A stretch of 64,000 bases of DNA from a virus (Duplodnaviria; Caudoviricetes). Location of the stretch: the IMG/VR virus record IMGVR_UViG_3300020177_000966; one strand, 5' to 3'. Numbering within the stretch: position 1 is the first letter of the stretch; each line of letters begins with the position of its first letter. The notes beneath the pieces were generated by a model. The model made no database searches. It saw only the letters and a list, made by a program, of their open reading frames with translations, and was not told the origin of the DNA. Positions 28,227 to 47,437 of the stretch are shown piece by piece. The position numbers and the translations under genes were made by a program.

Positions 28227-28574
28227 ATGGATAACGATCTAAAGAAAGCATTAGAGTTTGCTAATTTTTCTGCGACACTTAGTACACAAAAGCGACTATT
28301 GCAACAAAAATATCAAGAAGACTTAGTACTGTATCACTTAGGCGGAAGATTCACTGTTTCAAAAGAGTTATTTTCTTTTGTTTCTAATCTACTAATGCTC
28401 GATGTTAAGAAAACAGTAATTACAGATGATAACGACACCCCAGTATTAGTCGAAGATCTAAAACAGTTTGTTAATTTAGCAAAACAGCAATATGTTACAG
28501 CATCTAATAGATACTATTCTGAATACACAATCCTTACAGCTAAAAGAAATGTTGAAGGCTTAGTTAATGAGTAA
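28227..28574 (+). CDS. Hypothetical protein (115 aa), first gene of the glycosyltransferase/radical-SAM block
   Basis: Strong RBS; overlaps the start of the next gene. No recognised motif. Confidence 0.6.
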   Translation: MDNDLKKALEFANFSATLSTQKRLLQQKYQEDLVLYHLGGRFTVSKELFSFVSNLLMLDVKKTVITDDNDTPVLVEDLKQFVNLAKQQYVTASNRYYSEYTILTAKRNVEGLVNE

Positions 28575-29397
28575 AGGTGTATTATGCTTTGCAAATAATA
28601 ATGGTGAAATTGATTATGTAAAGCAAGCAGTTTTGCTTGCTAATCGAATTCGCAAGCATTTAAACTTGCCCACTACGGTTGTAACTTCAACTCCAGATGC
28701 AATTAATAGCAGTTATAGAAAAATATTTGATAACGTTATTACTATCAGCGACTCAGATAATAATTTTAAACGATATCGAAACGGCCAAGAAACTTATAAA
28801 ACTTTATATTTTAAAAATTTTGGTAGGTCTAACAGTTATGAGTTAACTCCTTATAATCAGACCTTAGTATTAGACACTGATATTATTATTTGTAATGATA
28901 CATTGAAACACGCATTTGATAGCATCCATGAATTTCAAATCTATAAAGAATGTATTGATGTAGCATCATGGCGCAAGCATAAAGAATTTGATTATATTAA
29001 TGATAAGGGTATTCCATTTTATTGGGCTTCAATATTTTATTTTAAAAAAACGCCAGAAATTAAAACATTCTTTACTATATTAAATTATGTAGTAAACAAT
29101 TGGGAACATTATCAATATGTTTATGATCTAGGATCTCGTAACTTTAGAAATGATCATGCGTTTAGTATTGCAATACACATACTGAACGGATTTAAAGATT
29201 TAGACTGGGCTAAATCGTTGCCTGGAAAGTTATATTATTCTCTAGATAGAGATATTTTACATAAGCTACACGATGAACAATTAACATTTCTTCTTGAAAA
29301 GGAGAATATTCATGGCGAGTATACATTAGCATCAACAAATAATATGAATGTACACGTAATGAATAAATTTAGTTTGGATAAGTTAATAAATGTCTAA
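28567..29397 (+). CDS. GT-A-fold glycosyltransferase-like protein
   Basis: DxD motif in QTLVLDTDII, plus the SYELTPY and RNDHAFSIA patterns. Paralogous to 29390. Confidence 0.65.
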   Translation: MSKGVLCFANNNGEIDYVKQAVLLANRIRKHLNLPTTVVTSTPDAINSSYRKIFDNVITISDSDNNFKRYRNGQETYKTLYFKNFGRSNSYELTPYNQTLVLDTDIIICNDTLKHAFDSIHEFQIYKECIDVASWRKHKEFDYINDKGIPFYWASIFYFKKTPEIKTFFTILNYVVNNWEHYQYVYDLGSRNFRNDHAFSIAIHILNGFKDLDWAKSLPGKLYYSLDRDILHKLHDEQLTFLLEKENIHGEYTLASTNNMNVHVMNKFSLDKLINV

Positions 29398-30190
29398 AGG
29401 ATATGTAATGATGGCTTCAGGCAAAGATTATGTGAAACAGGCATATCTTTGCGCATTGAGTATTAAGAAAACACAAGAAATTAATAGTGTTTCTATTATT
29501 ACTAATGATAAACTTCCAGATGAGTATCGTAATGTATTTGATAATGTAATTGCTATACCTTGGCAATCTGGCACCGACTTTTATCGTACTGAAGATCGTT
29601 GGAAAATCTTTCATGTAACTCCCTATACAGAAACTATTGTTTTAGATACTGACATGATATTTTTATCTAATATAGACCATGTTTGGACCTATTTAGAAAA
29701 ATATGACGTATGCTTTACTACAAATGTTCAAACATATAAAGGTACTATAGTTAAAGATAATTATTATAGACAAGCATTTATAAAAAATAACTTACCAAAC
29801 GTGTATTGTGCATTTCATTATTTTAAAAAGAACGATATTGGATTACAATATTATAAACATCTAGAATTAGTTTGTAAAAATCATGAGGAATTTTACAATA
29901 TTTACTTAAAGAAATTAAAGCCTAGGTTAAGTAGTATGGATATCAATCATGCAATAGCAGTTTTAAATACTAATTTAGAAAAATACTCTTGCAACTTATT
30001 ATCATTTACTCACATGAAATCAAAAGTACAAGACTGGAGTAATCCAAGTGATAATTGGTTAGATGACATTCCGTATTATATGGATGATGAATGTAACTTA
30101 AAAATAGGAAATTATAGTCAGTTAGGTGTATTTCATTATACAGAAGATAAATTTTGTAATCAAATTATGGAGAAATACAATGTATGCTAA
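29390..30190 (+). CDS. GT-A-fold glycosyltransferase-like protein (paralog)
   Basis: ETIVLDTDMIF (DxD), IFHVTPY, C-terminal FTHMK and FHYT. Aligns by eye with 28567. Confidence 0.65.
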   Translation: MSKGYVMMASGKDYVKQAYLCALSIKKTQEINSVSIITNDKLPDEYRNVFDNVIAIPWQSGTDFYRTEDRWKIFHVTPYTETIVLDTDMIFLSNIDHVWTYLEKYDVCFTTNVQTYKGTIVKDNYYRQAFIKNNLPNVYCAFHYFKKNDIGLQYYKHLELVCKNHEEFYNIYLKKLKPRLSSMDINHAIAVLNTNLEKYSCNLLSFTHMKSKVQDWSNPSDNWLDDIPYYMDDECNLKIGNYSQLGVFHYTEDKFCNQIMEKYNVC

Positions 30191-30701
30191 TTGGGATAGA
30201 AAACAGTATGCATGTTTTGTTAAAGAAACAGGCGAACTGTTTAGTGTAGGGGCTTCCATTGAAGATGGCTACGAATATATTGAAGTTACCGAAAGAGAAA
30301 TAGCACCAATACAGTCCTATGAAGATAAAATGGAAGATTACAGAGTTCTGTTTGACATTATAACTAAAACTTATAAGTTAAAAAAGAACATATCTATAAA
30401 TGATAAATTTGTTTTCAATAAAGTATTGCATATATCTGATGATAGTTTGCATGATCTAATATTTACAGTTGACAAGCAACATAATTTATGTTATATTAGT
30501 ACAAATCAGAGTCTTGTAGACTCTAAGTTAGAAGAAGAAATACTGTTTAGTGTAACAAAAAAAGAAGATCCGCATTTTTTGTATAAGTCAGTTAAGTTCA
30601 ATTTAAGTGACACACAACATGTAGATTTAAACGTACCAGATGAATACAGCATTTATTCAAATAGCAAAATAACTAGATGCGTGTATGAGGAAAAGAAATG
30701 A
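30180..30701 (+). CDS. Hypothetical protein (173 aa)
   Basis: The ATG at 30180 overlaps the upstream gene end and is preferred over 30126. No motif recognised. Confidence 0.55.
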   Translation: MYANWDRKQYACFVKETGELFSVGASIEDGYEYIEVTEREIAPIQSYEDKMEDYRVLFDIITKTYKLKKNISINDKFVFNKVLHISDDSLHDLIFTVDKQHNLCYISTNQSLVDSKLEEEILFSVTKKEDPHFLYKSVKFNLSDTQHVDLNVPDEYSIYSNSKITRCVYEEKK

Positions 30702-31618
30702 AGTTAAAGATTGCAGAACAAGATATTATATATTTGAGTTATGATGAACCTAATGCAGAAGAAAATTATGCTGACTTGCTTACTAAGGCACCTTGGGCTA
30801 AACGTGTGCATGGCGTAGAAGGTAGTGATGCCGCACATAAAGCATGTGCTGAATTAAGTGAAACGGATCGATTTATTACAGTTGATGGCGATAATAAAAT
30901 TCGTCCAGATTTTATTAATCAAGTATTAGACTTTGACGAACATACAGATTTAGAAAATAGTGTTATTAGCTGGTGTGGTAAAAATGCTATTAATGGACTT
31001 ATGTACGGCAACGGCGGTTTAAAATGTTGGCCTAAAGAGTATGTGCTTAATATGCGTACACACGAAAACGCCGATCCAGATAATAAGTCTGCCCAAGTAG
31101 ATTTTTGTTGGGACTTGCAATACATTCAACAGAACAGTTGCTATAGTGATGTGTATAATAACGCCACGCCACATCAAGCATGGCGAGCTGGATTTCGTGA
31201 AGGTGTAAAGATGGCATTAGACCGAGGTGTTAAACCTACTAAAGAAAATTTCCTTTCTGGCCATTGGAAAAATTTACACAGACTGTGGATTTGGTTAATG
31301 GTTGGTTCTGATACTCCAAATGGAAACTGGGCAATTTATGGAGCACGTGAAGGTCTAGTTGCTACAATGTTAGATGATTGGGATTATGTAAATGTAAGAG
31401 ATTTTAAATATTTAAACGATCTATGGGCCGGCCGAGATGCGTTGCCACTAGAAGTATTACATGACGAAATTTTTATACATGGCGCACGCCTAGTAAATGA
31501 ACTAGAATGTCCAATTGCTATTCAGCCATTTACTGAAGAACAAAGTGCTTTTTTTAAAACAGTTTATCAAAATCCTAGTAGAAATAGTGCCCAGCAGTTT
31601 ATTATAGACAAGGAATAA
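30698..31618 (+). CDS. Glycosyltransferase-like protein (second family)
   Basis: IIYLSYDEPNAE..., RVHGVEGSDAAHKACA...FITVDGDN (DxD) and AWRAGFREGVK. Paralogous to 32954. Confidence 0.55.
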   Translation: MKLKIAEQDIIYLSYDEPNAEENYADLLTKAPWAKRVHGVEGSDAAHKACAELSETDRFITVDGDNKIRPDFINQVLDFDEHTDLENSVISWCGKNAINGLMYGNGGLKCWPKEYVLNMRTHENADPDNKSAQVDFCWDLQYIQQNSCYSDVYNNATPHQAWRAGFREGVKMALDRGVKPTKENFLSGHWKNLHRLWIWLMVGSDTPNGNWAIYGAREGLVATMLDDWDYVNVRDFKYLNDLWAGRDALPLEVLHDEIFIHGARLVNELECPIAIQPFTEEQSAFFKTVYQNPSRNSAQQFIIDKE

Positions 31619-31619: not shown

Positions 31620-32966
31620 ATGGAATTAACAGATCCTAAAAAAGTTAAAGAAAAGTTAAATCAAGTAGGATGCGGATTCTGTTTGGCTAAATGGACACAG
31701 GTTACTATACACTTAGGATCAGGATTAAATCATAGTTGTCATCATGTAAAGGCACATACAATTCCAATTAACGAAGTTGAAGAAAATCCGCAATTACTAC
31801 ATAATACAATGTTTAAAAAGAATACACGCCAACAGATGAAAAGCGGTGAAAGACCTAGTGAATGTGATTACTGTTGGCGCATTGAAGATAACACGGATCA
31901 TTATAGTGATAGAATATGGAAAAGTAGAAATTATTGGAGTTGGCCAGATTATCACAAAATTGTAAATTCTAACGCATATGATGATTTTTATCCTAGATAT
32001 GTTGAAGTAAGTTTTTCTAATGTATGCAATTTTAAGTGTAGTTATTGTGGACCAGCATTTAGTAGTAAATGGACTGAAGAAATTAAAGAACACGGTCATT
32101 ATAAGTTTAGTACGATCAATTGGTTTTACAATCAACTAGATGAATATCAAAAGCAAATTCCTGAAAGAGAAGATAACCCGTATATTAACGCATTTTGGAA
32201 ATGGTTTCCTGAAGCAGTTAAACATATGCACACTTTTCGTATTACAGGAGGTGAACCTCTTTTAAGTAAACATACTGATAAAGTATTGCAACATTTAATA
32301 GATAATCCTCAACCTCAGTTAGAATTTTCTATTAATACAAATGCATGTCCCCCAGGAAAGCTATGGAATAAGTTTATTAAAAAAATACAGCATCTTGAAA
32401 ATAATAATTGTATTAAAGGATTTACCTTACATGTAAGTGCTGAAAGTAAAGGAGCGCAAGCAGAGTATAGTAGAACAGGAATGAATTGGCAACAATTCTA
32501 TGATAATGTATTATTGTATCTAAAAAATACTAACGGAAAACTAAGTTTTATGTCAGCATTTAATATTTTAAGTTTTCCTACATTTAGACCGTTTCTTGGA
32601 ATTGTGTTAAGACTACGTAATAGTTTTAAAAACAGAGTGAGAATTGCAATTCCATATGTAAGAAATCCTGGATTTCTTGATGCAATGATTGCAACTGAAG
32701 ACATGATTGAAACATATTTAATTCCTTGTATAAAGTTTATGGAAGAAAATTTTGACGAGCATGAAACAAATGATTTAAAAAGAATTGTGCAAGATTTAGA
32801 TAAACGATTTAAAAATCCAGAAGAGTTTGGCAGTCTTGCTAAAGAACGTAGATTTATGTTTTATGAATTTATTACTCAGTTTGACAAACGCCGAGGCACC
32901 GATTTCTTAACTGTATTTCCTGAATTAAAGAATTTTTACAAGGAGTGCAAACAATGTACGACATAG
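31620..32966 (+). CDS. Radical SAM protein with an N-terminal twitch-like Cys domain
   Basis: N-terminal FCLAKW...SCHH...ECDYCW, then the core CNFKCSYC, ITGGEPL and INTN. Confidence 0.85.
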   Translation: MELTDPKKVKEKLNQVGCGFCLAKWTQVTIHLGSGLNHSCHHVKAHTIPINEVEENPQLLHNTMFKKNTRQQMKSGERPSECDYCWRIEDNTDHYSDRIWKSRNYWSWPDYHKIVNSNAYDDFYPRYVEVSFSNVCNFKCSYCGPAFSSKWTEEIKEHGHYKFSTINWFYNQLDEYQKQIPEREDNPYINAFWKWFPEAVKHMHTFRITGGEPLLSKHTDKVLQHLIDNPQPQLEFSINTNACPPGKLWNKFIKKIQHLENNNCIKGFTLHVSAESKGAQAEYSRTGMNWQQFYDNVLLYLKNTNGKLSFMSAFNILSFPTFRPFLGIVLRLRNSFKNRVRIAIPYVRNPGFLDAMIATEDMIETYLIPCIKFMEENFDEHETNDLKRIVQDLDKRFKNPEEFGSLAKERRFMFYEFITQFDKRRGTDFLTVFPELKNFYKECKQCTT

Positions 32967-33643
32967 TGTTTATAAGTTATCATGAACCAAATGCAGAACA
33001 AAATTTTGACGATTTATATAGTAGATTTAATACAGTTGGAATCTTTGGTGATGACAGAGTAAAGCGAGTTAGTAATGTAAAAGGGATCCACAATGCTCAT
33101 ATTGAAGCGGCTAAGTTATCAACTACTAATTACTTTTTTGTTGTAGACGGCGACGCAGTAATTGTTGATGAATTTGATTTTAATTACTATACAACCGAAT
33201 CTGATACAGTGCATGTTTATAGAAGCATGAATCCTATTAATAATTTAATTTATGGGTATGGCGGCGTAAAGTTATTTCCAACTGAATTAACTAAGCAAAT
33301 GGATACAAGTACAACAGATATGACAACTAGTATTAGTGATAAATTTAAAGTAATTAATGAGATATCTAATATTACAGCATTTAATACAGATCCGTTTAAC
33401 ACATGGAAAAGTGCTTTTAGAGAATGTGCTAAATTAGCAAGTAAAACAATTGATAGACAACATGAGGATGAAACAAATGAAAGACTCAAAACTTGGACAA
33501 CCTTGGGACACGATAGAGAGTTTGGTGAGTATGCGTTGGGAGGTGCTAGGGCTGGTATGCAGTTTGGCCTTTCTAACAGCAATGATATTAAATTAATAAA
33601 CGACTTTGATTGGTTAAAGGAGCAATTTGATGCAAACTCATGA
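32954..33643 (+). CDS. Glycosyltransferase-like protein (paralog of 30698)
   Basis: IVFISYHEPNAE..., VKGIHNAHIEAA...FFVVDGDA and TWKSAFREC. AGGAG RBS 8 nt before the ATG at 32954. Confidence 0.55.
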   Translation: MYDIVFISYHEPNAEQNFDDLYSRFNTVGIFGDDRVKRVSNVKGIHNAHIEAAKLSTTNYFFVVDGDAVIVDEFDFNYYTTESDTVHVYRSMNPINNLIYGYGGVKLFPTELTKQMDTSTTDMTTSISDKFKVINEISNITAFNTDPFNTWKSAFRECAKLASKTIDRQHEDETNERLKTWTTLGHDREFGEYALGGARAGMQFGLSNSNDIKLINDFDWLKEQFDANS

Positions 33644-34463
33644 AATTTTAGATAGATTAGAACTATTATATCCCACTAGTAGCAAACTATCAGATCTACG
33701 TAGAGCATATATTGACAAAGATCTTAATAGTATTTTTAGAATTGTTACAGATGACAATAAAGATGATTTACGTAAAGCATTGTTACAGGATAACGTATGG
33801 AGTTTATTTCGTGCAATTAAACAGATGAAAGATACACCTTTTATTGAAGGGATCCGTAAATTACAAAAAAACGAAAACTTTGATCCAGACTGTATTAGTC
33901 GAGGTCAGATAAAAAGTAAACAGTGGCTAGTATCAGAACTAAAAAAATTAAATCTTGATCTAGGTGTTGTATTTTTATGTGCTGGTTGGTATGCTACACT
34001 TGCTACTATGATGTTTGAAAACAATTTAAAAATTGAAAAATTTAGAAGTTTTGACATCGATGATACTTGCAGAGAAGTAGCAGAAGCATTTAATAAAAAC
34101 TGGGTGCTAGACGGCTGGAAATTTAAATCATGTACTAAAGATATTAAAGAGATAAATTACGAAAATGCAATATACACAGTATTACGTGCTAATGGAACAA
34201 CCGTTGATTTAGGAGATATTCCTAATACTATTATTAATACAAGTTGTGAACACATTAAAAATTTTAGTGAGTGGTATGATTTAATTCCAGCAGGAAGATT
34301 AGTTGTATTACAAAGTAACGATTTCTATGAAGTTGAAGAACACGTTAACTGTACTACTAGCATGCACGATTTTGCTAGAATGGCTCCTATGACAACATTA
34401 TTGTATGAAGGAGAATTAGATCTTGAAAAATATACGAGGTATATGCGCATTGGATACAAGTAA
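33630..34463 (+). CDS. Class I SAM-dependent methyltransferase-like protein
   Basis: GQIKSKQWL, VFLCAGWY (motif-I-like), RSFDID and INTSCEH. Confidence 0.6.
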   Translation: MQTHEILDRLELLYPTSSKLSDLRRAYIDKDLNSIFRIVTDDNKDDLRKALLQDNVWSLFRAIKQMKDTPFIEGIRKLQKNENFDPDCISRGQIKSKQWLVSELKKLNLDLGVVFLCAGWYATLATMMFENNLKIEKFRSFDIDDTCREVAEAFNKNWVLDGWKFKSCTKDIKEINYENAIYTVLRANGTTVDLGDIPNTIINTSCEHIKNFSEWYDLIPAGRLVVLQSNDFYEVEEHVNCTTSMHDFARMAPMTTLLYEGELDLEKYTRYMRIGYK

Positions 34464-34674
34464 TTTATCACTTAGACAACTGCAAACTGAAAGTGCTAGA
34501 GCATTAAGTACAATGCAAGCAACTAACAACAATATTTGGCAGTTTAATAAACAAGCACACCACGATAGTCAAAACTGGTATCGTGCAGTTATTAAGTGGT
34601 ATGTAGATCAATACGGTGACTTGCCTAGTAAAGTTGGACCGGGTAAAGATATAAAGTTGGTAATAGATGTATAA
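34450..34674 (+). CDS. Small hypothetical protein (~74 aa)
   Basis: Fills the gap between the methyltransferase and a radical SAM gene, overlapping both. The probable TTG start at 34450 is uncertain. Confidence 0.5.
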   Translation: MDTSNLSLRQLQTESARALSTMQATNNNIWQFNKQAHHDSQNWYRAVIKWYVDQYGDLPSKVGPGKDIKLVIDV

Positions 34675-39851: not shown

Positions 39852-41026
39852 GTTTTGACACTATAGATTTATTATCAGGAAATATTTTCCAAATTACTTG
39901 GGATTTAGGCCGACGTTGCAATTATGATTGTAGTTATTGCCCTGCTCATAGGCATGACAATTTTAGTCCTCACGCATCATTAGACGATCTTAAATCTAAT
40001 ACTGACTTTTTGTTTGAATATATTGATACCTATATGCAGTATAGAAATAATAAATTAGCAAGTATTAGTTTTACAGGCGGCGAACCTACAGTAAATCCTA
40101 ATTTTATTCCTTTTGTAAAATATTTAAATGACGAATATTATAAAAAGTATTCTCATAAATGGGATGCCAATATAGGATTAACTACTAACGGGGCTATGAG
40201 TGAAAAAATGGCTGAAGCAGTTATCGAAAATATACAACATGTAACAGTTAGCTATCATACTGAATCGGATGATAAATTACGACAGCAAGTTAAGGATAGA
40301 ATTAAACAATTTCGTGAAGCAGAAATAAAATATCCTAAAGACTTTCGAATGAATGTTAATGTTATGTTTCATGCTCAACAATTTGACGAATGTAAAGAAT
40401 TGTGCAAATGGTTAGACACACTTGGTTGTAAATATGTTCCAAGGGTTATTGGAGAAGAACCTGACAGTAAAGCAACTTTTGCTCATGAGTACACACCAGA
40501 TCAATTAGATTACATTAAAAATTATTGGAAATATAAAAATGCTAAACTAAATGATGAAGAAGAAGTATCAAAAGTATTAAGTGCCGCAGGCGAAAAGAAA
40601 AATGAAGCAACAAAAGTTTTAGGAAGTAGTATCGGAAGACCATGTTGTGGTATGCGAGAGATGTGTCTAAGTAGTGCTGGCGGCGAAAGTCGCAAAAGTA
40701 CCTTTGTTAACATGCGAGAGTTTAAAGGTTGGCATTGTAGTGTAAATTGGTTTTTCCTACATTTAGAACAACAGACAGATCAGGTATTCCATCATCAAAC
40801 ATGTCAAGCACGATTTGATGGTACAAGAGGTCCAATAGGTAAAATAAGTGAAGGTAAAAAGATTATTGCAGATCTTAAAGAAAAGTTATCAATGAATAAA
40901 ATGCCAACAATTGTTTGTCCTAAACAAACATGTAGTTGTGGATTATGTGCACCTAAAAGTAAATTTAAAGACAGTTACAAAGACACACTACAGAATCATT
41001 TTAATGTGGAAATCTTAGATGTCTGA
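39848..41026 (+). CDS. Radical SAM protein (subfamily B)
   Basis: WDLGRRCNYDCSYC; FTGGEP; VSYHTE; C-terminal CSVN...CQ...CPKQTCSCGLC. Confidence 0.9.
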   Translation: MSFDTIDLLSGNIFQITWDLGRRCNYDCSYCPAHRHDNFSPHASLDDLKSNTDFLFEYIDTYMQYRNNKLASISFTGGEPTVNPNFIPFVKYLNDEYYKKYSHKWDANIGLTTNGAMSEKMAEAVIENIQHVTVSYHTESDDKLRQQVKDRIKQFREAEIKYPKDFRMNVNVMFHAQQFDECKELCKWLDTLGCKYVPRVIGEEPDSKATFAHEYTPDQLDYIKNYWKYKNAKLNDEEEVSKVLSAAGEKKNEATKVLGSSIGRPCCGMREMCLSSAGGESRKSTFVNMREFKGWHCSVNWFFLHLEQQTDQVFHHQTCQARFDGTRGPIGKISEGKKIIADLKEKLSMNKMPTIVCPKQTCSCGLCAPKSKFKDSYKDTLQNHFNVEILDV

Positions 41027-42083
41027 TTATAAGTGTTTAGAATCACTAAACAGCATTTATGTAGATAAACGGAGTAGCGGATATCTTATTTCGCCATGTT
41101 GCCTTTTTAAGCAAACAGAATATAATGCAGTAAAAAACATTCAAGAACTAGTTGATAATCCTATTATTAAAAATATACAACAAGGATTTAAGGATGATTG
41201 GAAACGTCCTGAATGCCAAAGTTGTATATCTAAAGAAATAATAGGCTTACAAAGTAAGAGGCAAAAAAGTTTATTAAGAGGATCTCCTGGAAAACTTTTA
41301 AGATGGGACCTTAGACCAGGATTCACATGTAATTTAAAATGTGCAATGTGTAATCCTTACAATAGCTCTAAGTGGGGAGAAGACTTAGAAATTTTTGAAA
41401 AGTATAATGGAAAAGTTTATTTAGAACAAAATGATAGAGAAGGGCTAGACTGGGACTGGATTTATGATAATTGTATCAACGTTGCTGAAGAAATCTATAT
41501 TGCAGGCGGCGAACCTTTCTATATGAAAGCAGTTCAAACATTTCTTACTAAATTATCAGAACACCCTTGGAATTGTAACAATACAGTGATTGTAGTTCAA
41601 ACTAATGCAGTGAGTAATACACCAAAGTTATTAAAGATATTAAAACGCTTTAAAAAACTAAACTTTGGAATTAGTATAGACGGATGGGGAACAGTTAATG
41701 AAATCATTAGGTATCCTACAAAGCACGAAACTTTTGTTAAGAATGTTAAAGAGCTAACTAGTATTACTAAAGATTTTTATTTTAATATAACAGTTCAAGC
41801 AATGAATCTTCCAAATGTAGATAAAACAGTCAACAAAGTATCAAATTGGGGTCGATGGGAAATACATAAACTTAATACGCCTTCTCATTTAAGTATTAAT
41901 AGTTTAAAACCATCAGTAGTTGAAAGAGTTAAAGATACAACGTCGATAGATTTATTAAAAGAATTTTTAAAAGATTATAAATTTGACAACGAAAAGAATA
42001 TTAAAATGCAAAACTATCTATTGGAACTTGATAATGCAAGAGGAACTGATAGTAAAACAACCTTACCGTGGTGCTTTGAATAA
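41019..42083 (+). CDS. Radical SAM protein with an N-terminal twitch-like domain
   Basis: N-terminal KCLE...ISPCC...PECQSC, then CNLKCAMC and IAGGEPF. Confidence 0.88.
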   Translation: MSDYKCLESLNSIYVDKRSSGYLISPCCLFKQTEYNAVKNIQELVDNPIIKNIQQGFKDDWKRPECQSCISKEIIGLQSKRQKSLLRGSPGKLLRWDLRPGFTCNLKCAMCNPYNSSKWGEDLEIFEKYNGKVYLEQNDREGLDWDWIYDNCINVAEEIYIAGGEPFYMKAVQTFLTKLSEHPWNCNNTVIVVQTNAVSNTPKLLKILKRFKKLNFGISIDGWGTVNEIIRYPTKHETFVKNVKELTSITKDFYFNITVQAMNLPNVDKTVNKVSNWGRWEIHKLNTPSHLSINSLKPSVVERVKDTTSIDLLKEFLKDYKFDNEKNIKMQNYLLELDNARGTDSKTTLPWCFE

Positions 42084-43024
42084 TGTGGACAACTGATACA
42101 CTAGAATGGATTGATATTGAACTTACTAGCTTTTGTAATATTAAGTGCAAAGGTTGTTTTAGAGTGATATCTAAACATGCAGATCAAATTTTAAATAAAA
42201 CTTATTTAGATCTTGAAGTTATTAAGCAAAGATTTCAAAAGGAAATGTTTCCTAATATTAAGATTATCAATTTTTGTGGCAGTGTGGACGAACCTTGCAG
42301 TCATCCTCAGTTTCATGAAATAGTAGAACACTTTGCAGAATGGGGATGTCATATTAATGTTGCAACCAATGGTAGTTTGCGTACGACACAATGGTGGGAA
42401 AAACTAGCAAAGATTATGCCGCCGAGCCATAAGGTAACATGGGGCATTGATGGTAGCGACGAACTAAGTGAAGTTTATAGAGAAGGCTCTAATTTTAAAA
42501 AAGTACAGCAAAATTATAGAGCATTTATTGGAGCAGGCGGCAAAGCCAATTGGCAGTTTATTGTATTTGAACACAATGAACACCAACTAGAAGTTGCAAA
42601 ACAAATGGCAACAAATGAAGGCTTTAAAGAATTTAAAACGATCATTAGTCATAGAAAAGATACTGGCGGAGTAAAACATAAAAAAGTTGAAGTAGAAGAG
42701 TCTAATTGTATCAGTTGCAAGTACGGTAATCAAAAACGTATTTTTGTAAATCATATGGGAAATGTAATTCCATGCTGTCATTTAAATGCAAAGATGTTAG
42801 AATATTCTGTATCTTCTATTCCAAAGGATAGATTTGAAGACATACTAGAACAACAAGATTATCTAACAGATATTAATTTAAAAAATGTTAGCTTAGAGCA
42901 AGCAATTAACGGAAAAGTTTGGACTGATATTAAAAACAGTTGGACGTCAGACAATAAAATTCCAAGATGTGAGCAAGTATGTAAAGAAAACAAAAGAGAT
43001 AAGTTTATAAAGGATAAACTATAA
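42083..43024 (+). CDS. Radical SAM protein with a C-terminal SPASM/twitch-like domain (subfamily A)
   Basis: CNIKCKGC; CGSVDEP; C-terminal SCKY..IFVNHMG.VIPCCH...CEQVC. Confidence 0.9.
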   Translation: MWTTDTLEWIDIELTSFCNIKCKGCFRVISKHADQILNKTYLDLEVIKQRFQKEMFPNIKIINFCGSVDEPCSHPQFHEIVEHFAEWGCHINVATNGSLRTTQWWEKLAKIMPPSHKVTWGIDGSDELSEVYREGSNFKKVQQNYRAFIGAGGKANWQFIVFEHNEHQLEVAKQMATNEGFKEFKTIISHRKDTGGVKHKKVEVEESNCISCKYGNQKRIFVNHMGNVIPCCHLNAKMLEYSVSSIPKDRFEDILEQQDYLTDINLKNVSLEQAINGKVWTDIKNSWTSDNKIPRCEQVCKENKRDKFIKDKL

Positions 43025-44208
43025 TGGAACCAGTAGCAAGTTATTTTAAATTTAATCCAACTGGCGCATTTAGTGTCGATTGGTATATTGGAAAAAGATG
43101 TAATTATGATTGCAGTTATTGTGTAGATTATTTGCACGATAATCATAGTCCACACGTTCCGTTAGAAAACATGAAGCGTCTTGTTGATGTAGTTTATGAA
43201 GAACATGGCACTAATGTATTTTGGAGTTTGACAGGTGGAGAGCCTACTGTGAATCCAAAGTTTATGGAGTTGTGTAAGTACATTAAAGAAGAAAAAGGTG
43301 CAAGATTTATTAGTATTACTACTAATGGAAGTAGAACTGCAAAATATTTAAAAGAGCTATTCCGATATCTAGACAGTATTACAGTTAGTTTTCATTTTGA
43401 ACACATGGCAGATAAGGTTGATGAATTTATTGAAAAGTTTATTGAACTGGATGATTGGCGTGTGGCATGGAATAAAGAACAAGAAGAAAAAGGACTTAAT
43501 CATAAAGACTTTAAAAACGGTTATACTCGAAAAAATTTAATATTAAGATTTATGGTTTATCCTGAGCAGTTTAATAATATTGAAAAAATGGAAACTGCAT
43601 TTAGGAATCATGGCATTACTAATATTGAACATAGATATATACGTCCACCAGGCGGCAATAGTAATGAACTATTACCTAGAACAAAACTAGACTTTGAAAA
43701 AAATAATGATACAATGGATCCTAAAATACTATTGTCTACGGACGACGAAGTAGAAATTAAGGTAATTGAAACTAGAGAAAAGAAATTTTATAAAGAAGGC
43801 GAAGAAGATAAAATTAAGAGAATTTATGAAAGCACTGTTACTCCAGATAAACGTAAATTAAAGTTTTGGTTCCAAGATGAAGAAAAACAATACAAAGATA
43901 TTGACTTTCATTACAACGAACTTAATTTTGACAAGAAAAATAATTATGAAGGCTGGCTATGTTGGGCAGGTGTAAAACATTTAAAAGTAACTCCTCCGGG
44001 AGACATTTATATTGGCAGTTGTCACGTTGGAGGAAAGAGAGGAAACATTTATGATAAAGACTCAATTGATCTTCCTTTAGAACCTATTAGATGTCCTAAG
44101 TGGAGATGTACAGATAATTTAGATTTAAAAGTTCCTAAGATTAAAGACTGGGAACATTATCATTTAATTAAAGATATGATTGAATGGAAGGTTGACAAAG
44201 ATCAATAA
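43024..44208 (+). CDS. Radical SAM protein (subfamily B)
   Basis: WYIGKRCNYDCSYC; LTGGEP; VSFHFE; C-terminal CWAG...SC...CPKWRC. Confidence 0.9.
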   Translation: MEPVASYFKFNPTGAFSVDWYIGKRCNYDCSYCVDYLHDNHSPHVPLENMKRLVDVVYEEHGTNVFWSLTGGEPTVNPKFMELCKYIKEEKGARFISITTNGSRTAKYLKELFRYLDSITVSFHFEHMADKVDEFIEKFIELDDWRVAWNKEQEEKGLNHKDFKNGYTRKNLILRFMVYPEQFNNIEKMETAFRNHGITNIEHRYIRPPGGNSNELLPRTKLDFEKNNDTMDPKILLSTDDEVEIKVIETREKKFYKEGEEDKIKRIYESTVTPDKRKLKFWFQDEEKQYKDIDFHYNELNFDKKNNYEGWLCWAGVKHLKVTPPGDIYIGSCHVGGKRGNIYDKDSIDLPLEPIRCPKWRCTDNLDLKVPKIKDWEHYHLIKDMIEWKVDKDQ

Positions 44209-44226: not shown

Positions 44227-45351
44227 ATGACTGAAGACCTAAAATGGAGCAATTATGATTTTACTAAAATTCCTCTTGAGGATATTGTCTCTGTGGGGCA
44301 AAGAACTCTACTCTATAGGGATCTTTTTACTGTTAGTTGGTTGCTCGGCCGTTTTTGTAATTATAAATGCTCTTACTGCTGGCCGTACGCTCGCAGTGAC
44401 AGAAAAGATCATAGACCAACTGTATTATGTCTACGAACAGTGGACGAAATAAAAAGACAAGCAAGAGATAATGGTTTTAACAGCTTCCACTTCTCCTTGT
44501 CGGGAGGAGAGCCTACTTTCCATCCTGGATACTTGGACATTCTCAAACATCTTGCAGAAGATGTAGAAAACACAAACTATACAAGTATACACATGACTTC
44601 AAATTGTAGTAGAAATATGAAGTGGTTTGAAACTTATGTTGATTATGCAAAGCCCTTTCATAGGGCAAGTATTACAGCAAGTCTGCATACAGAACATGTA
44701 AACACAAAGGAGAAGATGCAGGAGTTCGCAGACAAATTAATCCTGTGTCAAGAAAACGATGTACAAATTACAATTAATCAAGTTATGGTTCCTGAATGGT
44801 TTGAAAGAGATTGGGAAAACGCTCTGTTCTTCCACGAGCAAGGTATCAATGTCACTCTTAAGCCTCAGTCCGATCCAACTGCCTCAAGAGTGGTTGATGG
44901 ATATACAGAAGAACAACTTAAAAAACTCTACAACGGAATGCCGCAAAGGGCATACACAGAAAGTAAACGAAAATGGGACGGCAGGCCTAAACCGTCATTC
45001 GAAATACCTAAAGGAATAAATGGCACCAACGACGCTAGTGTACCTTGGCATATGCAAGTAGAATTTGAGGATAAAAATGGAAAAAAATGGTACATGGATC
45101 AAGCTGAGCGTTTTAATGCTTTTAATTTTAATAACTTTAAAGGTTGGAATTGCAATGCCGGATACCAAGGAATCATTATTAGAGAGCCCGACGGTTCCGT
45201 TAAGCGATCCTATTCCTGTCACGATGTGCCGCTTGGAAATATTGAAACAGGATTTAAACTCTTTGATACCCCTATGCCCTGCATTACAAACTCCTGTGTC
45301 TCAAGTGCAGATTCAAAAATACCAAAAAGGAAAGTAGTGTGCCCGGAATAA
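44227..45351 (+). CDS. Radical SAM protein (subfamily B)
   Basis: WLLGRFCNYKCSYC; LSGGEP; ASLHTE; C-terminal CNAG...SC...CITNSC. Confidence 0.9.
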   Translation: MTEDLKWSNYDFTKIPLEDIVSVGQRTLLYRDLFTVSWLLGRFCNYKCSYCWPYARSDRKDHRPTVLCLRTVDEIKRQARDNGFNSFHFSLSGGEPTFHPGYLDILKHLAEDVENTNYTSIHMTSNCSRNMKWFETYVDYAKPFHRASITASLHTEHVNTKEKMQEFADKLILCQENDVQITINQVMVPEWFERDWENALFFHEQGINVTLKPQSDPTASRVVDGYTEEQLKKLYNGMPQRAYTESKRKWDGRPKPSFEIPKGINGTNDASVPWHMQVEFEDKNGKKWYMDQAERFNAFNFNNFKGWNCNAGYQGIIIREPDGSVKRSYSCHDVPLGNIETGFKLFDTPMPCITNSCVSSADSKIPKRKVVCPE

Positions 45352-45962
45352 TTCATATTGAACCAACTTCAAGATGTCCATTACAATGTCCTTTGTGTCC
45401 AAGAACAATATATTCAGATAAAATACAAAATACAGATTGTGATATTGAGCACTATAGTGATTTAACATCTACGTTTGACGAAATTATTATTTGTGGAAAC
45501 CACGGCGATCCAATATATCATAAAGATTTTATCGGATTAATACGTAAGATTAAAGAAAAGAACAACACTGCTAAATTAATTTTACATACTAACGGAAGTT
45601 ATAGAAGTAAAGATTGGTGGAGTAAATTAGCAAAAGTGTTTGATGCCAACGACGAAATTAATTTTAGTATTGATGGTATTGAAAGTAATAATCACATGTA
45701 CCGAGTAAATTCTAAGTGGGATTTAATTGTAAAGGGTATAGAAGCATTTAGAAAAAATAATAGTTCAACTAAGTTAATATGGAAACATATACTTTTTAAA
45801 TATAATCAAAATACTATTACACAAGCATTAGTAATAGCTAAACAATTAAATTTTGATCAGTTTATGATAGTACAAAGTAATCGCAATAGTGATAAATTTA
45901 ATCCTACAATAACAATTAATCAACTTGAAGAAAATATAAAAAATGATCTATCCACGATGTAA
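45339..45962 (+). CDS. Radical SAM core domain (subfamily A) lacking its C-terminal Cys domain
   Basis: CPLQCPLC; CGNHGDP; FSIDG...N..YRVN..W. It ends where its paralogs continue into the SPASM-like domain. Confidence 0.85.
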   Translation: MPGIIHIEPTSRCPLQCPLCPRTIYSDKIQNTDCDIEHYSDLTSTFDEIIICGNHGDPIYHKDFIGLIRKIKEKNNTAKLILHTNGSYRSKDWWSKLAKVFDANDEINFSIDGIESNNHMYRVNSKWDLIVKGIEAFRKNNSSTKLIWKHILFKYNQNTITQALVIAKQLNFDQFMIVQSNRNSDKFNPTITINQLEENIKNDLSTM

Positions 45963-46266
45963 GATTAATAAAGCCGCAGAATATATTGATAGTGATGGTT
46001 ATTATTATCCATGCTGTTGGATAGCTAATCAACCTTATGTTGATGATCTAAAAGAATTTCTCGGAGAAGATCTAAAAGACTTGCATACACAAAATAAATC
46101 CATACAGGATTTAAGGGAAAGTAAAGCATTAACTAAATTAGAAAATAGTTGGAATAAATCAGATTGCTTCTATGCTTGTAAGAAATTTTGTAGTAAAAAT
46201 CCTGCTGACATAAAAAATGAAGGCGGCGCTCACACAATTAACGAACACATTATTTTTAATCTTTAA
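45943..46266 (+). CDS. Stand-alone SPASM/twitch-like Fe-S domain (C-terminal half of the 45339 enzyme)
   Basis: PRC....YIDSDG..YPCCW...ACKKFC matches the C-terminal domain of subfamily A. Confidence 0.75.
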   Translation: MIYPRCKINKAAEYIDSDGYYYPCCWIANQPYVDDLKEFLGEDLKDLHTQNKSIQDLRESKALTKLENSWNKSDCFYACKKFCSKNPADIKNEGGAHTINEHIIFNL

Positions 46267-47437
46267 TAGTTACAAATATATCTGAAAATTGTGGATAACT
46301 TTCAAAAAAGTTTTGTCCTCTATGCTTATCTGTAATTTCTATATATCGTTTAAGATTAGGAAGTAAATAACTATCATCCTTGCTATTCATAAAATTTTTA
46401 ATATAATCTAAATTTTTATTAATTTTTGGGTTAGTACAAGTTTTTTGATAGTTGTTAAATTTTTCTGTAACACGTTTTTTGATATGTTCAGGCAATGATG
46501 TTACACAGAGTTTCTCAGGATATGTTAAGTGTGTTGGATTCATAACTTTAAATCCGTGATCGTTTTCCCACCACCATTCTAAACTTTCAGGCATATTCCA
46601 CACATTGAGTATGCTAATAGTACTACGCAATAGTACATCAAATCCGTGACTCTTTTTAAGTTCTAAAAAACGTTTAGTAACTGCTTCTGTAGTTTCGTAC
46701 TTAGCAGGCCAGCGAATGTATTCACTTTCTGATGGATTAGCACTATCAAAACTAAGAGCAAATTCTACTTTTTTAAATTTACTCCATTTTTCAATCCAGC
46801 TGTCTTTTGGCATAATAGTACAGTTAGTACTATAGTTTAAAAATATTTCACTGCAATCTCTTTCAGCAAGCATTTTATCTACAAGTACCCATTGGTCTTT
46901 AGTCATCAATGGCTCGCCGCCTGTAAATTTTACATGAACTAAATCATTAATAAACGGATATATGTTAGTAATATCACTTTTACTTTTTTCTACTTCATTA
47001 AACGATTTTCCGTAGATTAACTTTTCTTCATTAAACCATTTCCAACTGTATCTACTATCGCACATACGACATGCAAGATTACAGTCATTACTAATAGCAA
47101 GTTCGATCCAACCTATTTTTGGATTTTCAATATCAACTAACTGATCAATTGGCAATGCTTCGTTATCAAGATAGCGTTCACGTAAGCTCTTTTTTCCAGA
47201 CTCTTCTTCTTGATAGCAACGTACACACCCGTCTACTTGTTCACCAGCAAGCATCTTACGACGGATTTCTTCCATCCAGTCACCATAAAATATTTCACTT
47301 AATGTTTTATCGTTTAGGTTATGATCCTTTGGTCTAAACTTTTCAGCAAACCTACAACATGGTTTTACTCGTGCAGTAGGATCAATAAACTGATGATCCC
47401 ATGCCATACTGCAAAATGTTTTACTTGGAATTTTCAT
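46256..47437 (-). CDS. Radical SAM protein with an N-terminal twitch-like domain (opposite strand)
   Basis: FCSMAW......P..RVKPCC...DGCVRC, then CNLACRMC and FTGGEPL. The ATG at 47437 is preferred over the TTG at 47443. Confidence 0.9.
   Translation of the reverse strand: MKIPSKTFCSMAWDHQFIDPTARVKPCCRFAEKFRPKDHNLNDKTLSEIFYGDWMEEIRRKMLAGEQVDGCVRCYQEEESGKKSLRERYLDNEALPIDQLVDIENPKIGWIELAISNDCNLACRMCDSRYSWKWFNEEKLIYGKSFNEVEKSKSDITNIYPFINDLVHVKFTGGEPLMTKDQWVLVDKMLAERDCSEIFLNYSTNCTIMPKDSWIEKWSKFKKVEFALSFDSANPSESEYIRWPAKYETTEAVTKRFLELKKSHGFDVLLRSTISILNVWNMPESLEWWWENDHGFKVMNPTHLTYPEKLCVTSLPEHIKKRVTEKFNNYQKTCTNPKINKNLDYIKNFMNSKDDSYLLPNLKRYIEITDKHRGQNFFESYPQFSDIFVTIKD

What the first reader, a model, noticed from the sequence alone, without database searches (positions are those of the whole stretch)
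28227..47437. Phage-encoded array of 12 radical-SAM enzymes with four glycosyltransferase-like genes, directly behind the tail-fibre operon
Seen: 12 CxxxCxxC radical-SAM cores in about 16 kb (31620, 34667, 35746, 36810, 37808, 39848, 41019, 42083, 43024, 44227, 45339, 46256). All carry or sit beside extra Cys-rich domains. They are interleaved with four DxD glycosyltransferase-like genes, a methyltransferase and an SGNH enzyme. Most genes overlap or abut, and the block begins 36 nt after the last structural gene. Established: twitch-type radical SAM enzymes include sugar/aminocyclitol tailoring enzymes (BtrN, NeoN), and virion glycosylation by phage GTs has been shown in some mycobacteriophages. 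Inference: this is a glycan-building and radical-tailoring pathway, most plausibly decorating tail fibres or the virion, or else the infected cell surface. I know of no characterised phage pathway with this composition. This is the best candidate for a new system in the window.
Basis: partly seen in the sequence, partly recalled or inferred. Interest (0 to 1): 0.95.

Follow-up and report, generated by a model that had tools for sequence, protein, structure and literature searches.

The report
Phage radical-SAM array in glycosyltransferase cassette
An uncultured salt-marsh jumbo phage carries, right behind its tail-fibre genes, 12 intact radical-SAM enzymes joined to four sugar-transferase-fold genes; the same core is found in hundreds of phage contigs, in predatory Bdellovibrio-type bacteria and, in a one-radical-SAM form, in a culturable Ralstonia phage, so it most likely builds and edits a sugar decoration by chemistry nobody has tested.

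Summary
There are 12 intact radical SAM (rSAM) genes between 31.6 and 47.4 kb. They fall into three old paralog families: four N-terminal-twitch NF033640 members, five with a C-terminal SPASM/twitch-like domain (one split into two ORFs), and three 'CNY[DK]CSYC' enzymes.

The four "GT-like" genes are supported at fold level. Two are GT2-like GT-A folds and two are GT8/glycogenin-like. The methyltransferase and the SGNH enzyme remain leads only.

New here:
- A five-gene core (one rSAM of each family, a GT-A and the MT-like gene) recurs in most of 50 full-length viral loci and in Bdellovibrionota chromosomes. There its neighbours include GT2, GT-C, carbamoyltransferase and SDR genes.
- GT, GT and MT are fused into one protein in relatives.
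- The supposed "last structural gene" (27277-28191) belongs to the cassette.
- The isolated Ralstonia phage RsoM2USA carries a collinear minimal cassette with a single rSAM, which offers an experimental handle.

Best reading (about 0.5): a cytoplasmic pathway that builds a glycan and edits it by radical chemistry, probably on the co-encoded fibre-like protein. The target and the chemistry are untested.

Two papers had already noted such rSAM cassettes. This scan had also found the same kind of island on at least eight other genomes.

The parts
27277..28191 (+). Fibre-like protein (3 N-terminal helices plus a beta-sandwich). It is the first gene of the conserved cassette and the candidate glycan acceptor.
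   Evidence: AF2 pLDDT 88, no significant PDB match. Homologs lead the cassette in Bdellovibrionales L107/L162 (28% identity). In RsoM2USA ORF355 the homolog is fused to the fibre N-terminal module. At least 385 homologs in metagenomes.
28227..28574 (+). 115-aa protein of unknown function; conserved cassette member.
   Evidence: Homologs at the same position in L162 (31%) and RsoM2USA (27%). No family hit.
28567..29397 (+). GT8/glycogenin-like GT-A glycosyltransferase-fold protein 1.
   Evidence: The Atlas model aligns to a Nucleotid_trans/Glyco_transf_8 cluster at TM 0.60/0.71. The family profile hits glycogenin in PDB at E 1e-3. Invariant D103xD105.
29390..30190 (+). GT8-like GT-A protein 2 (paralog of 28567).
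   Evidence: Cross-hits with the 28567 family. Aligned in A6. phrog_1903.
30126..30701 (+). 191-aa ORF of unknown function.
   Evidence: An ORF of 157-184 aa sits at the same position in L162, RsoM2USA, L022 and L072, but no sequence similarity was detected.
30698..31618 (+). GT-A (GT2-like fold) glycosyltransferase-fold protein; paralog of 32945.
   Evidence: 32% identity to 32945 in A2. 46-62% orthologs in RsoM2USA, L162 and L022.
31620..32966 (+). N-terminal-twitch rSAM (family A).
   Evidence: NF033640 298 bits, cut-off 170. CNFKCSYC motif. 40% ortholog is the only clear rSAM of RsoM2USA.
32945..33643 (+). GT-A (GT2-like fold) glycosyltransferase-fold protein; core gene.
   Evidence: AF2 pLDDT 91. 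54 PDB matches with E<=1e-3; the 50 listed are GT-A-fold sugar (nucleotidyl)transferases, nearly all glycosyltransferases. Conserved D68xD70. Fused with 30698-like and 33627-like domains in relatives.
33627..34463 (+). Methyltransferase-like protein (lead only); core gene.
   Evidence: Language-model neighbours include Methyltransf_31 clusters. No PDB sequence hit. Present in 42/50 viral loci and 18/37 bacterial loci.
34450..34674 (+). Conserved 74-aa protein (TTG start), translationally coupled to the core rSAM; found only in phage versions.
   Evidence: About 75% identity along its whole length in 42/50 viral loci. Not found in Bdellovibrionota clusters by HMM.
34667..35734 (+). rSAM family B (C-terminal Cys-rich SPASM/twitch-like); core gene.
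   Evidence: PF04055 31 bits. 43-49% orthologs in Bdellovibrionota.
35746..36813 (+). rSAM family B.
   Evidence: PF04055 35.7 bits; SPASM sub-threshold. Best PDB sequence hit is BlsE at E 9e-5.
36810..37811 (+). rSAM family B.
   Evidence: PF04055 35.8 bits. Paralogy shown.
37808..39220 (+). N-terminal-twitch rSAM (family A); core gene.
   Evidence: NF033640 426 bits. About 80% identity in more than 2000 metagenome proteins. 56-63% orthologs in Bdellovibrionota.
39213..39851 (+). SGNH/GDSL-like hydrolase (motif level).
   Evidence: Invariant G-C-S, G49 and DxxH in A7. Lipase_GDSL E 0.036. PDB GDSL E 0.077.
39848..41026 (+). rSAM family C (CNYDCSYC).
   Evidence: PF04055 52.9 bits. Present in 33/50 viral loci.
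41019..42083 (+). N-terminal-twitch rSAM (family A).
   Evidence: NF033640 192 bits.
42083..43024 (+). rSAM family B with a SPASM domain.
   Evidence: PF04055 35.9 bits and SPASM 29.6 bits.
43024..44208 (+). rSAM family C.
   Evidence: PF04055 62.8 bits. 49% ortholog in the Bdellovibrionales MAG contig L083, beside a GT2.
44227..45351 (+). rSAM family C; the most conserved core gene.
   Evidence: PF04055 51.8 bits. 72-88% identity in phage relatives. 57-68% in Bdellovibrionota chromosomes. Found in 15 of 301 genomes sampled from the phylum.
45339..45962 (+). rSAM family B; ORF holding the core only.
   Evidence: PF04055 38.6 bits.
45943..46266 (+). Separate Cys-rich SPASM-like ORF that completes 45339.
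   Evidence: SPASM 16.9 bits, sub-threshold. The same two-ORF layout occurs in relatives at 24-38% identity with different junctions.
46256..47443 (-). N-terminal-twitch rSAM (family A), convergent with the rest of the array.
   Evidence: NF033640 302 bits.
47421..48218 (-). QueC-like PP-loop ATPase (SGGxDS motif plus C-terminal Cys cluster); probable accessory gene.
   Evidence: PF06508 29.6 bits, C-terminal part only. Paralogs lie inside the arrays of 35/50 viral loci.

Best explanation
The block is a cytoplasmic pathway that builds a glycan and then edits it by radical chemistry.

Shown:
- Four soluble GT-A-fold proteins (two GT8/glycogenin-like, two GT2-like), an MT-like protein and 12 intact rSAM enzymes with auxiliary Cys-rich (twitch/SPASM-type) modules form one tightly packed gene string.
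- A five-gene core (one rSAM of each of three families, a GT-A and the MT-like gene) is conserved across phages and Bdellovibrionota.
- GT, GT and MT occur fused in one polypeptide in relatives.
- Homologous clusters contain sugar-specific enzymes.

Inferred:
- The GTs assemble a short, methylated oligosaccharide from nucleotide sugars on a soluble acceptor. The most likely acceptor is the fibre-like protein 27277-28191, which leads the cassette in three independent contexts.
- The rSAMs cleave SAM to the 5'-deoxyadenosyl radical and abstract H from sugar carbons. They would then epimerise, oxidise, deoxygenate, decarboxylate or cross-link residues, with the auxiliary [4Fe-4S] cluster taking the electron, as in BtrN or BlsE.
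- The SGNH-like and QueC-like enzymes would remove acyl groups and amidate carboxylates.
- The array is modular. The GT/MT scaffold is constant, while the number of rSAMs ranges from 1 (RsoM2USA) to 12 or more. This would diversify the decoration.
For: - rSAM identity and families.
- GT-A fold of 32945, with the listed structural neighbours GT-A-fold sugar (nucleotidyl)transferases, nearly all GTs. Conserved DxD.
- GT8 link of 28567/29390.
- GT-GT-MT fusion in L022/L072 and tandem GT domains in L003, L034 and L060.
- Co-occurrence in 50 full-length viral loci (GT 41, MT 42, core rSAMs 35-50).
- The same core in Bdellovibrionota chromosomes next to housekeeping genes.
- Sugar enzymes in homologous clusters: UDP-glucose/GDP-mannose dehydrogenase; GT2 and SDR; NodU-type carbamoyltransferase; GT2/GT21 and a weak PMT_2 (GT-C) hit.
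- The family B rSAM's best solved relative by sequence is the sugar-nucleoside decarboxylase BlsE.
- All block proteins lack predicted membrane helices, and there is no flippase or polymerase.
- The fibre-like protein heads the cassette in the window, in L107/L162 and in RsoM2USA, where it carries the fibre N-terminal module.
- The cassette follows the baseplate, giant-protein and fibre genes both here and in RsoM2USA.
Against: - No Pfam or NCBIfam GT model reaches significance on the four GT-like ORFs.
- TM-scores to solved GTs are modest, 0.35-0.5.
- No nucleotide-sugar synthesis gene lies in this window's block.
- Most characterised SPASM enzymes act on peptides.
- In phages, a uniformly conserved 74-aa protein sits just upstream of the core rSAM.
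- In most Bdellovibrionota loci the core has no 27277 homolog nearby, so the acceptor cannot be that protein everywhere.
- 27277 is well conserved (73-87% identity in many metagenome proteins). That is not what one expects of a diversifying receptor-binding tip.
- Nothing here measures a glycan.
Confidence: 0.5

Rival explanations
1. Same glycan chemistry, different target. The product is not put on the virion. It either remodels the infected cell's envelope glycans (LPS/capsule serotype conversion, superinfection exclusion) or is a free glyco-metabolite.
For: - In Bdellovibrionota the core sits with GT2 and an ArnT/PMT-like GT-C, enzymes typical of surface-glycan or lipid A modification, and without fibre genes.
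- The pelagimyophage paper proposed O-chain modification for HRC glycosyltransferases (PMC7029224).
- A relative carries a Trp-halogenase and an AMP-binding enzyme next to the array.
Against: - The phage block encodes no membrane protein, flippase, polyprenyl-phosphate GT or exporter.
- In phages the cassette is consistently placed after fibre genes and led by a fibre-like protein.
Confidence: 0.2
2. RiPP-like or protein-maturation system. The twitch/SPASM rSAMs cross-link, epimerise or otherwise modify a ribosomal peptide or protein: the conserved 74-aa protein, the fibre-like protein or the neighbouring fibres. The GTs and MT then decorate it, as in glycocins or glycosylated, methylated mycofactocin.
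For: - Weak NCBIfam similarities to peptide maturases (SkfB, PapB, YhhB, MftC, PqqE).
- The 74-aa protein is rich in W/Y/H/N/K, overlaps the start of the core rSAM and is conserved at about 75%.
- SunS (an S-glycosyltransferase of a glycocin) and the PBCV-1 capsid GT are among the structural neighbours of 32945.
- Asp/Asn beta-hydroxylase-like genes flank the arrays.
Against: - The 74-aa protein shows no leader/core pattern of conservation. It is absent from the bacterial clusters that keep the three core rSAMs at 43-68% identity.
- No PqqD/RRE family was detected.
- Family B and C rSAMs start directly with the rSAM core.
- 27277 has a single Cys, so thioether chemistry on it is unlikely.
- Sugar-specific accessory enzymes are hard to explain on this reading.
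Confidence: 0.15
3. Nucleotide or DNA hypermodification pathway: modified bases or nucleosides, for example 7-deazapurine-type or glycosylated bases, made to evade host defences.
For: - The N-terminal halves of family C resemble viperin and MoaA, enzymes with nucleoside-triphosphate substrates.
- QueC-like PP-loop genes lie in and beside the arrays.
- The BlsE hit is to an enzyme with a nucleoside substrate.
Against: - No TGT/DpdA match in the 146-kb contig, which is incomplete.
- All viperin, MoaA and QueC/QueE scores are far below the family cut-offs.
- The block lies in the fibre/baseplate region on the structural strand, not with replication genes.
- The cassette is led by a fibre-like protein.
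Confidence: 0.05

Closest known systems
NCBIfam NF033640, N_Twi_rSAM ('twitch domain-containing radical SAM protein')
   Same: Four of the 12 enzymes (31620, 37808, 41019, 46256) score 192-426 bits over the full model, against a cut-off of 170. They have four conserved Cys ahead of the CX3CX2C core.
   Different: The family is only a catalogue entry with no tested function. The other eight rSAMs belong to two other families that fit no curated equivalog.
Host recognition cluster (HRC) of pelagimyophages/cyanomyophages (PMC7029224), and the T4-like marine genome with 12 rSAM genes (PMC5332604)
   Same: A large variable region with tail-fibre genes, GT8-type glycosyltransferases and rSAM gene cassettes that come and go between relatives.
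   Different: Those papers only counted or annotated the genes. They did not define the conserved rSAM/GT/MT core, the GT-GT-MT fusions, the Bdellovibrionota counterpart or the RsoM2USA mini-cassette. This phage's baseplate is closest to Atu_ph07/Rak2-type jumbo phages, at 34-37% identity.
Twitch/SPASM rSAM enzymes of carbohydrate tailoring (BtrN, BlsE; NeoN and HygY from my own knowledge)
   Same: An rSAM core plus an auxiliary Fe-S module, embedded among GT and MT genes. BlsE is the best solved sequence relative of family B, at E 9e-5.
   Different: Similarity covers only the N-terminal core at very low scores. No equivalog cut-off is met. Known pathways use one or two such enzymes, not 12, and are not encoded by phages.
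Virus-encoded virion glycosylation (chlorovirus PBCV-1 A64R; mycobacteriophage virion glycosylation, from my own knowledge)
   Same: Soluble virus-encoded GT-A enzymes that could act on structural proteins in the cytoplasm. PBCV-1 A64R is among the structural neighbours of 32945, at E 9e-4.
   Different: Those systems contain no rSAM enzymes. Glycosylation of this phage's proteins has not been shown.
Mycofactocin pathway (MftC rSAM-SPASM, MftF GT2, MftM methyltransferase; from my own knowledge)
   Same: The combination of an rSAM-SPASM enzyme, a GT2-fold enzyme and a methyltransferase beside a small protein. There are weak MftC hits at E 1e-6 to 1e-8.
   Different: Scores are far below the 265-bit cut-off. 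No MftA/MftB/MftD/MftE analogues were found. The small protein is absent from the bacterial clusters.

Membership tests
Radical SAM superfamily (PF04055) | CX3CX2C motif that binds the SAM-cleaving [4Fe-4S] cluster | tested here: met
   One motif in each of the 12 proteins.
Radical SAM superfamily (PF04055) | Profile score above the curated cut-off (29.5 bits) | tested here: met
   11 of 12 are above it. 31620 scores 25.8 bits as a single protein, but 29.7 in the genome search and 298 bits on NF033640.
Radical SAM superfamily (PF04055) | Reductive cleavage of SAM to 5'-deoxyadenosine | not testable with these tools
   Needs anaerobic reconstitution.
NF033640 N_Twi_rSAM | Full-length score of at least 170 bits | tested here: met
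   31620: 298 bits; 37808: 426; 41019: 192; 46256: 302. The other eight score 25-52 bits and are not members.
NF033640 N_Twi_rSAM | Cys-rich twitch module on the N-terminal side of the rSAM core | tested here: met
   Invariant C13, C32, C94 and C97 lie before C150/C154/C157 in the four-way alignment. Pfam SPASM matches residues 13-97 of 37808 and 11-76 of 46256.
SPASM/twitch domain (PF13186), families B and C | Profile score above 21.5 bits | tested here: inconclusive
   Met by 42083 (29.6). Sub-threshold for 35746 (17.6) and 45943 (16.9). There is no match for the others, although all have Cys-rich C-termini.
GT-A glycosyltransferase (GT2-like), 32945 and 30698 | GT-A Rossmann-like fold | tested here: met
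   AF2 pLDDT 91. 54 PDB matches at E<=1e-3; the 50 listed are GT-A-fold sugar (nucleotidyl)transferases, nearly all GTs. The top 30 Swiss-Prot models are GTs or unnamed proteins. TM 0.35-0.51.
GT-A glycosyltransferase (GT2-like), 32945 and 30698 | Conserved DxD metal/nucleotide-sugar motif | tested here: met
   D70 is invariant and D68 is at least 90% conserved in 48 sequences.
GT-A glycosyltransferase (GT2-like), 32945 and 30698 | Significant match to a curated GT family model | tested here: not met
   No Pfam or NCBIfam hit for the window proteins. Only a weak Glyco_tranf_2_3 hit (E 0.0026) in the fused relative L034, and a 'faint' Glycos_transf_2 hit in L162.
GT8 (glycogenin-like), 28567 and 29390 | Sequence or fold relation to GT8 with a conserved DxD | tested here: inconclusive
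   The family profile hits 19 glycogenin entries, but only at E 1e-3 to 1e-2. The Atlas model aligns at TM 0.60/0.71 to a Nucleotid_trans/GT8 cluster. D103 and D105 are invariant. No Pfam hit.
Class I SAM-dependent methyltransferase, 33627 | Rossmann MTase fold with a SAM-binding motif | tested here: inconclusive
   Language-model neighbours at 0.95 include a cluster in which 21% of members carry Methyltransf_31. No Pfam hit and no PDB profile hit. The protein was not folded.
SGNH/GDSL hydrolase, 39213 | Blocks I (GxS), II (G) and V (DxxH) | tested here: inconclusive
   Invariant G9-C10-S11, G49, D185 and H189, with D186-x-x-H189 in the window protein. Lipase_GDSL E 0.036, below the cut-off. 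PDB GDSL E 0.077.
RiPP biosynthetic cluster | Precursor peptide with a conserved leader and a distinct core, plus an RRE/PqqD-type recognition element | tested here: inconclusive
   The only small-protein candidate is evenly conserved along its length and is absent from the bacterial clusters. No PqqD or RRE family was detected. Distant RREs can escape Pfam.
7-deazaguanine (QueC/QueE/DpdA) DNA modification | QueC equivalog together with a TGT/DpdA transglycosylase | tested here: not met
   47421 scores 23 bits on TIGR00364, whose cut-off is 150. No TGT match in the contig, which is incomplete.
Phage host recognition cluster (HRC, PMC7029224) | Variable region that joins tail-fibre genes with GT and rSAM cassettes | tested here: met
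   Fibre genes lie at 21825-27255, followed by the block. rSAM content varies from 6 to 11 per 21-kb locus. The description comes from the paper.

The most novel reading that the evidence does not exclude
Phages and predatory bacteria share an expandable 'radical glycan editor'. A fixed GT/GT/MT scaffold would build a protein-linked oligosaccharide on a fibre-type protein. A fast-changing array of twitch-type rSAM enzymes, including the untested N-terminal-twitch family, would then rewrite its sugars by radical chemistry not yet described. This would generate variable surface glycans that tune prey or host recognition, or evade it.
Probability: 0.3. Interest if true: 0.85.

Novelty: new variant of a known kind. 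Interest (0 to 1): 0.66.

Why it matters
rSAM enzymes with auxiliary clusters perform some of the hardest reactions in sugar and peptide chemistry. Here, three uncharacterised families sit in one operon, kept at 57-88% identity across phages and bacteria of very different GC content.

If the product is a virion or cell-surface glycan, this would be the first phage glycosylation pathway with radical tailoring. It would also link phage fibres with the surface biology of Bdellovibrionota.

The one-rSAM cassette in the culturable phage RsoM2USA makes the question directly testable. It gives the NF033640 family its first tractable substrate hunt.

Tried and rejected
- Complex prediction of the 74-aa protein with rSAM 34667 gave 'no answer' (score 0.00; partner pLDDT 38-39). 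This says nothing either way.
- Megablast of the block against 50,697 phage records: no match.
- tblastn of 27277 and 44227 against phages: no match. 37808 hit only two Vibrio phages, at 22%.
- The N-twitch alignment A1 was too divergent for a collection scan. The genome-contig scan with 46256 found no relative.
- PDB sequence or profile searches with rSAMs gave only remote core matches: SkfB, viperin, BlsE, anSME.
- PDB, BFVD, VIA-wide and AFDB searches with the 27277 model gave no significant known fold. The best were Z 6.8 and Foldseek E 0.014, plus unnamed viral and MAG homologs.
- Sigma-70-type promoters, terminators and the T4 late motif TATAAATA are not enriched. Co-transcription with the fibre genes is therefore inferred from gene packing only.
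- No tRNA genes.
- The look-up of encoding contigs found no record for the window's own aminotransferase or for the L097 protein.
- L083's genome is not held.
- Metatranscriptome assemblies of four salt-marsh studies cover nearly all of 25-45 kb at 99% identity or more, and bridge 27277 into 28567. These are contigs, DNA carry-over was not excluded, and the depth dips at 28.3-30.3 kb carry no meaning.
- The 7-deazaguanine idea was rejected for lack of TGT and because family scores are sub-threshold.
- Most accessory ORFs of related clusters have no Pfam family.

Full report
**Setting.** The window is part of a 146-kb IMG/VR viral contig that CheckV rates about 40% complete. Upstream of the finding lie:
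- endolysin/peptidase-like and PAAR-like genes;
- a 1162-aa baseplate wedge protein (phrog_10646, E 7e-293), whose best relatives are jumbo myoviruses of the Atu_ph07/Rak2 type at 34-37% identity;
- a 4987-aa ORF;
- three fibre-like genes that share an N-terminal module.

Related contigs reach 236-342 kb. Salt-marsh metagenomes hold the stretch almost word for word.

**Observation.**
- Pfam Radical_SAM is matched by all 12, and 11 are above the gathering score. The twelfth (31620) scores 298 bits on NCBIfam NF033640.
- These are the only rSAM matches in the contig.
- Pairwise comparison sorts them into three old families at 20-35% identity:
  - Family A: N-terminal-twitch enzymes 31620, 37808, 41019 and 46256(-). 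All are above the NF033640 cut-off, with four invariant Cys ahead of the core.
  - Family B: 34667, 35746, 36810, 42083 and 45339, with a C-terminal Cys-rich SPASM/twitch-like part.
  - Family C: 39848, 43024 and 44227, with CNY[DK]CSYC and an N-terminal half faintly like viperin/MoaA.
- None reaches the cut-off of any functionally defined equivalog.
- Solved structures are related only through the core: SkfB E 4e-4, viperin 1e-7, BlsE 9e-5.
- Genes overlap or abut throughout.

**The non-rSAM genes.** No curated model hits them.
- *32945.* An AlphaFold model built with 48 homologs has pLDDT 91 and finds GT-A-fold neighbours, nearly all glycosyltransferases: WrtF, RmlT, ArnC, GtrB, ppGalNAc-T, SunS, PBCV-1 A64R. 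There are 54 matches at E<=1e-3, with TM 0.35-0.5. Its DxD is conserved.
- *30698.* This is its paralog.
- *28567.* It has an Atlas model (pTM 0.89) that aligns to a Nucleotid_trans/GT8 cluster at TM 0.60/0.71.
- *28567/29390 family.* A profile hits glycogenin and the Skp1 galactosyltransferase in the PDB, the best at E 1e-3. D103xD105 is invariant.
- *33627.* The MTase assignment is only a language-model lead; a PDB profile search found nothing.
- *39213.* It keeps G-C-S, G and DxxH blocks and has weak GDSL matches.
- No block protein has a predicted membrane helix.

**Relatives.** The N-twitch enzyme 37808 has more than 2000 homologs at about 80% identity in aquatic metagenomes. I fetched 80 viral loci. 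In the 50 loci with full flanks:
- there are 6-11 rSAM ORFs per 21 kb;
- a recurring core is present: GT-A 41/50, MT-like 42/50, the 74-aa protein 42/50, family B 34667 47/50, family A 37808 50/50, family C 44227 35/50;
- QueC-like paralogs lie inside 35/50 arrays;
- the remaining rSAMs change from locus to locus.

In L022 and L072 the 30698-like, 32945-like and 33627-like units are fused into one protein of 848-1058 aa. Other relatives carry up to five tandem GT-A domains. This is a Rosetta-stone argument that GT, GT and MT act together. One relative embeds a UDP-glucose/GDP-mannose dehydrogenase between rSAM genes. Another has a Trp-halogenase and an AMP-binding enzyme next to the array.

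**Bacterial counterpart.** A scan with the 44227 family found orthologs at 57-68% identity in Bdellovibrionota MAGs and complete chromosomes with GC 30-58%.
- The ortholog is present in 15 of 301 sampled genomes of the phylum.
- In 37 such loci the same core recurs: 44227-type 35, 34667-type 32, 37808-type 32, MT-like 18, GT-A 17. Further rSAM paralogs are also present.
- Arrays of 10 or more rSAM genes exist there as well.
- Neighbours are housekeeping genes (pheST, rplS, trmD, serS), so these are cellular loci.
- Accessory genes include bona fide GT2, a NodU-type carbamoyltransferase, an SDR, a FAD amine-oxidase-like enzyme, a B12-rSAM, and a GT2/GT21 with a weak PMT_2 (ArnT-like) hit.

**The left half is a unit.** In the Bdellovibrionales locus L107/L162 the order 27277-like, 28227-like, 28567-like, 29390-like, small ORF, 30698-like, then rSAMs, is collinear with the window.

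The only isolate among 50,697 phage records with any of these genes is Ralstonia jumbo phage RsoM2USA. Its ORFs 355-347 read as follows:
- a protein whose first ~65 residues match the N-terminal module of the window's fibres (33-40% identity) and whose remainder matches 27277 (24% over 310 aa);
- then 28227-like, GT8-like, GT8-like and a 184-aa ORF;
- then GT-A (46%), an N-twitch rSAM (40% to 31620), GT-A (41%) and MT-like (29%).

That rSAM is the only clear one in the 344-kb genome. The cassette lies downstream of the baseplate wedge, a 2541-aa structural protein and the MS-confirmed virion protein ORF356. ORFs 347-355 themselves are unannotated and were not examined (PMC8504454).

The number of rSAMs on a constant GT/MT scaffold ranges from 1 to 12 or more. 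The model of 27277 (pLDDT 88) is a three-helix N-terminal part plus a beta-sandwich with no significant known fold.

**Interpretation.**
- *What the evidence supports.* It favours a carbohydrate-directed pathway. The reasons are four GT-A folds, the fused GT-GT-MT, sugar-specific accessory enzymes in homologous clusters, soluble enzymes only, and core rSAMs conserved at levels that suggest a constant small chemical substrate rather than a variable peptide.
- *What is inferred.* That the acceptor is the co-encoded fibre-like protein is an inference from its position in three contexts. It cannot hold for most Bdellovibrionota loci, which lack it nearby.
- *Peptide/protein rival.* It keeps weight because of the SPASM/twitch precedent and the conserved 74-aa protein. 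However, that protein is evenly conserved along its length and is missing from the bacterial clusters.
- *DNA-modification rival.* It is weak.
- *Expression.* Metatranscriptome assemblies contain the region, which fits expression but does not prove it.

**Prior knowledge.** A T4-like marine genome with 12 rSAM genes was reported in 2017. rSAM cassettes with GT8 genes in the pelagimyophage host recognition cluster were reported in 2020. Neither paper assigned a function.

After my own searches, the scan's notebook showed that follow-ups on at least eight other genomes reached the same general reading, including the link to Bdellovibrio-type bacteria. As far as those short notes show, this report adds:
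- the explicit five-gene core;
- the fusion evidence;
- the reassignment of 27277 to the cassette;
- the conserved split rSAM/Cys-domain pair;
- the RsoM2USA mini-cassette as an experimental entry point.

Noticed in passing
window 45339-46266: An rSAM core ORF (207 aa) is followed by a separate 107-aa Cys-rich SPASM-like ORF in the +1 frame, across an A6 run. The same two-ORF layout, each with its own ATG overlapping the upstream stop, recurs in relatives at only 24-38% identity and with unrelated junction sequences. It therefore looks like a genuine two-polypeptide arrangement rather than a recent frameshift.
   Followed up: partly
window 21825-27255; L165 2775-3944: Three consecutive fibre-like genes (21825, 23910, 25777) share an N-terminal module of about 90 aa (MAY.IN...ENF..LLENF...GQ.W.D). 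In RsoM2USA the same module is fused to a 27277-like body.
   Followed up: partly
window 6230-21193: A single 4987-aa ORF lies between the baseplate wedge gene and the fibre genes. RsoM2USA has a 2541-aa structural protein at the equivalent place. It was not analysed.
   Followed up: no
window 48293-50549: The right flank of the array holds an Asp/Asn beta-hydroxylase-family gene (48293-48925), a weak GNAT-like ORF (48922-49479) and a clear class IV aminotransferase (49710-50549, E 3e-35). Hydroxylase homologs also lie beside the arrays of relatives (L041).
   Followed up: no
L081 19763-21413: In a 322-kb relative, a flavin Trp-halogenase and an AMP-binding enzyme follow the rSAM array. This hints that some versions act on non-sugar moieties.
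   Followed up: no
L082 323-12281 and 17145-18743: A 485-kb contig has ten rSAM genes in a row only about 5 kb from a large terminase gene, so the array is not always next to fibre genes.
   Followed up: no
window 27277-28191: The closest AlphaFold-DB cluster model (34% identity, TM 0.87) bears the automatic name 'Flagellin N-terminal domain-containing protein'. Pfam gave no flagellin hit for the window protein at E<=0.01. It may be worth a check, because flagellins are classic targets of O-glycosylation islands.
   Followed up: no
window 25001-45000: Contigs from four salt-marsh metatranscriptome studies cover nearly the whole stretch at 99% identity or more, and bridge the fibre-like gene into the first GT8-like gene. 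DNA carry-over was not controlled.
   Followed up: partly
L016 4390-5616: A UDP-glucose/GDP-mannose dehydrogenase homolog is embedded between rSAM genes in a 251-kb relative. Together with the QueC-like PP-loop paralogs, this suggests uronic acid/uronamide chemistry.
   Followed up: no
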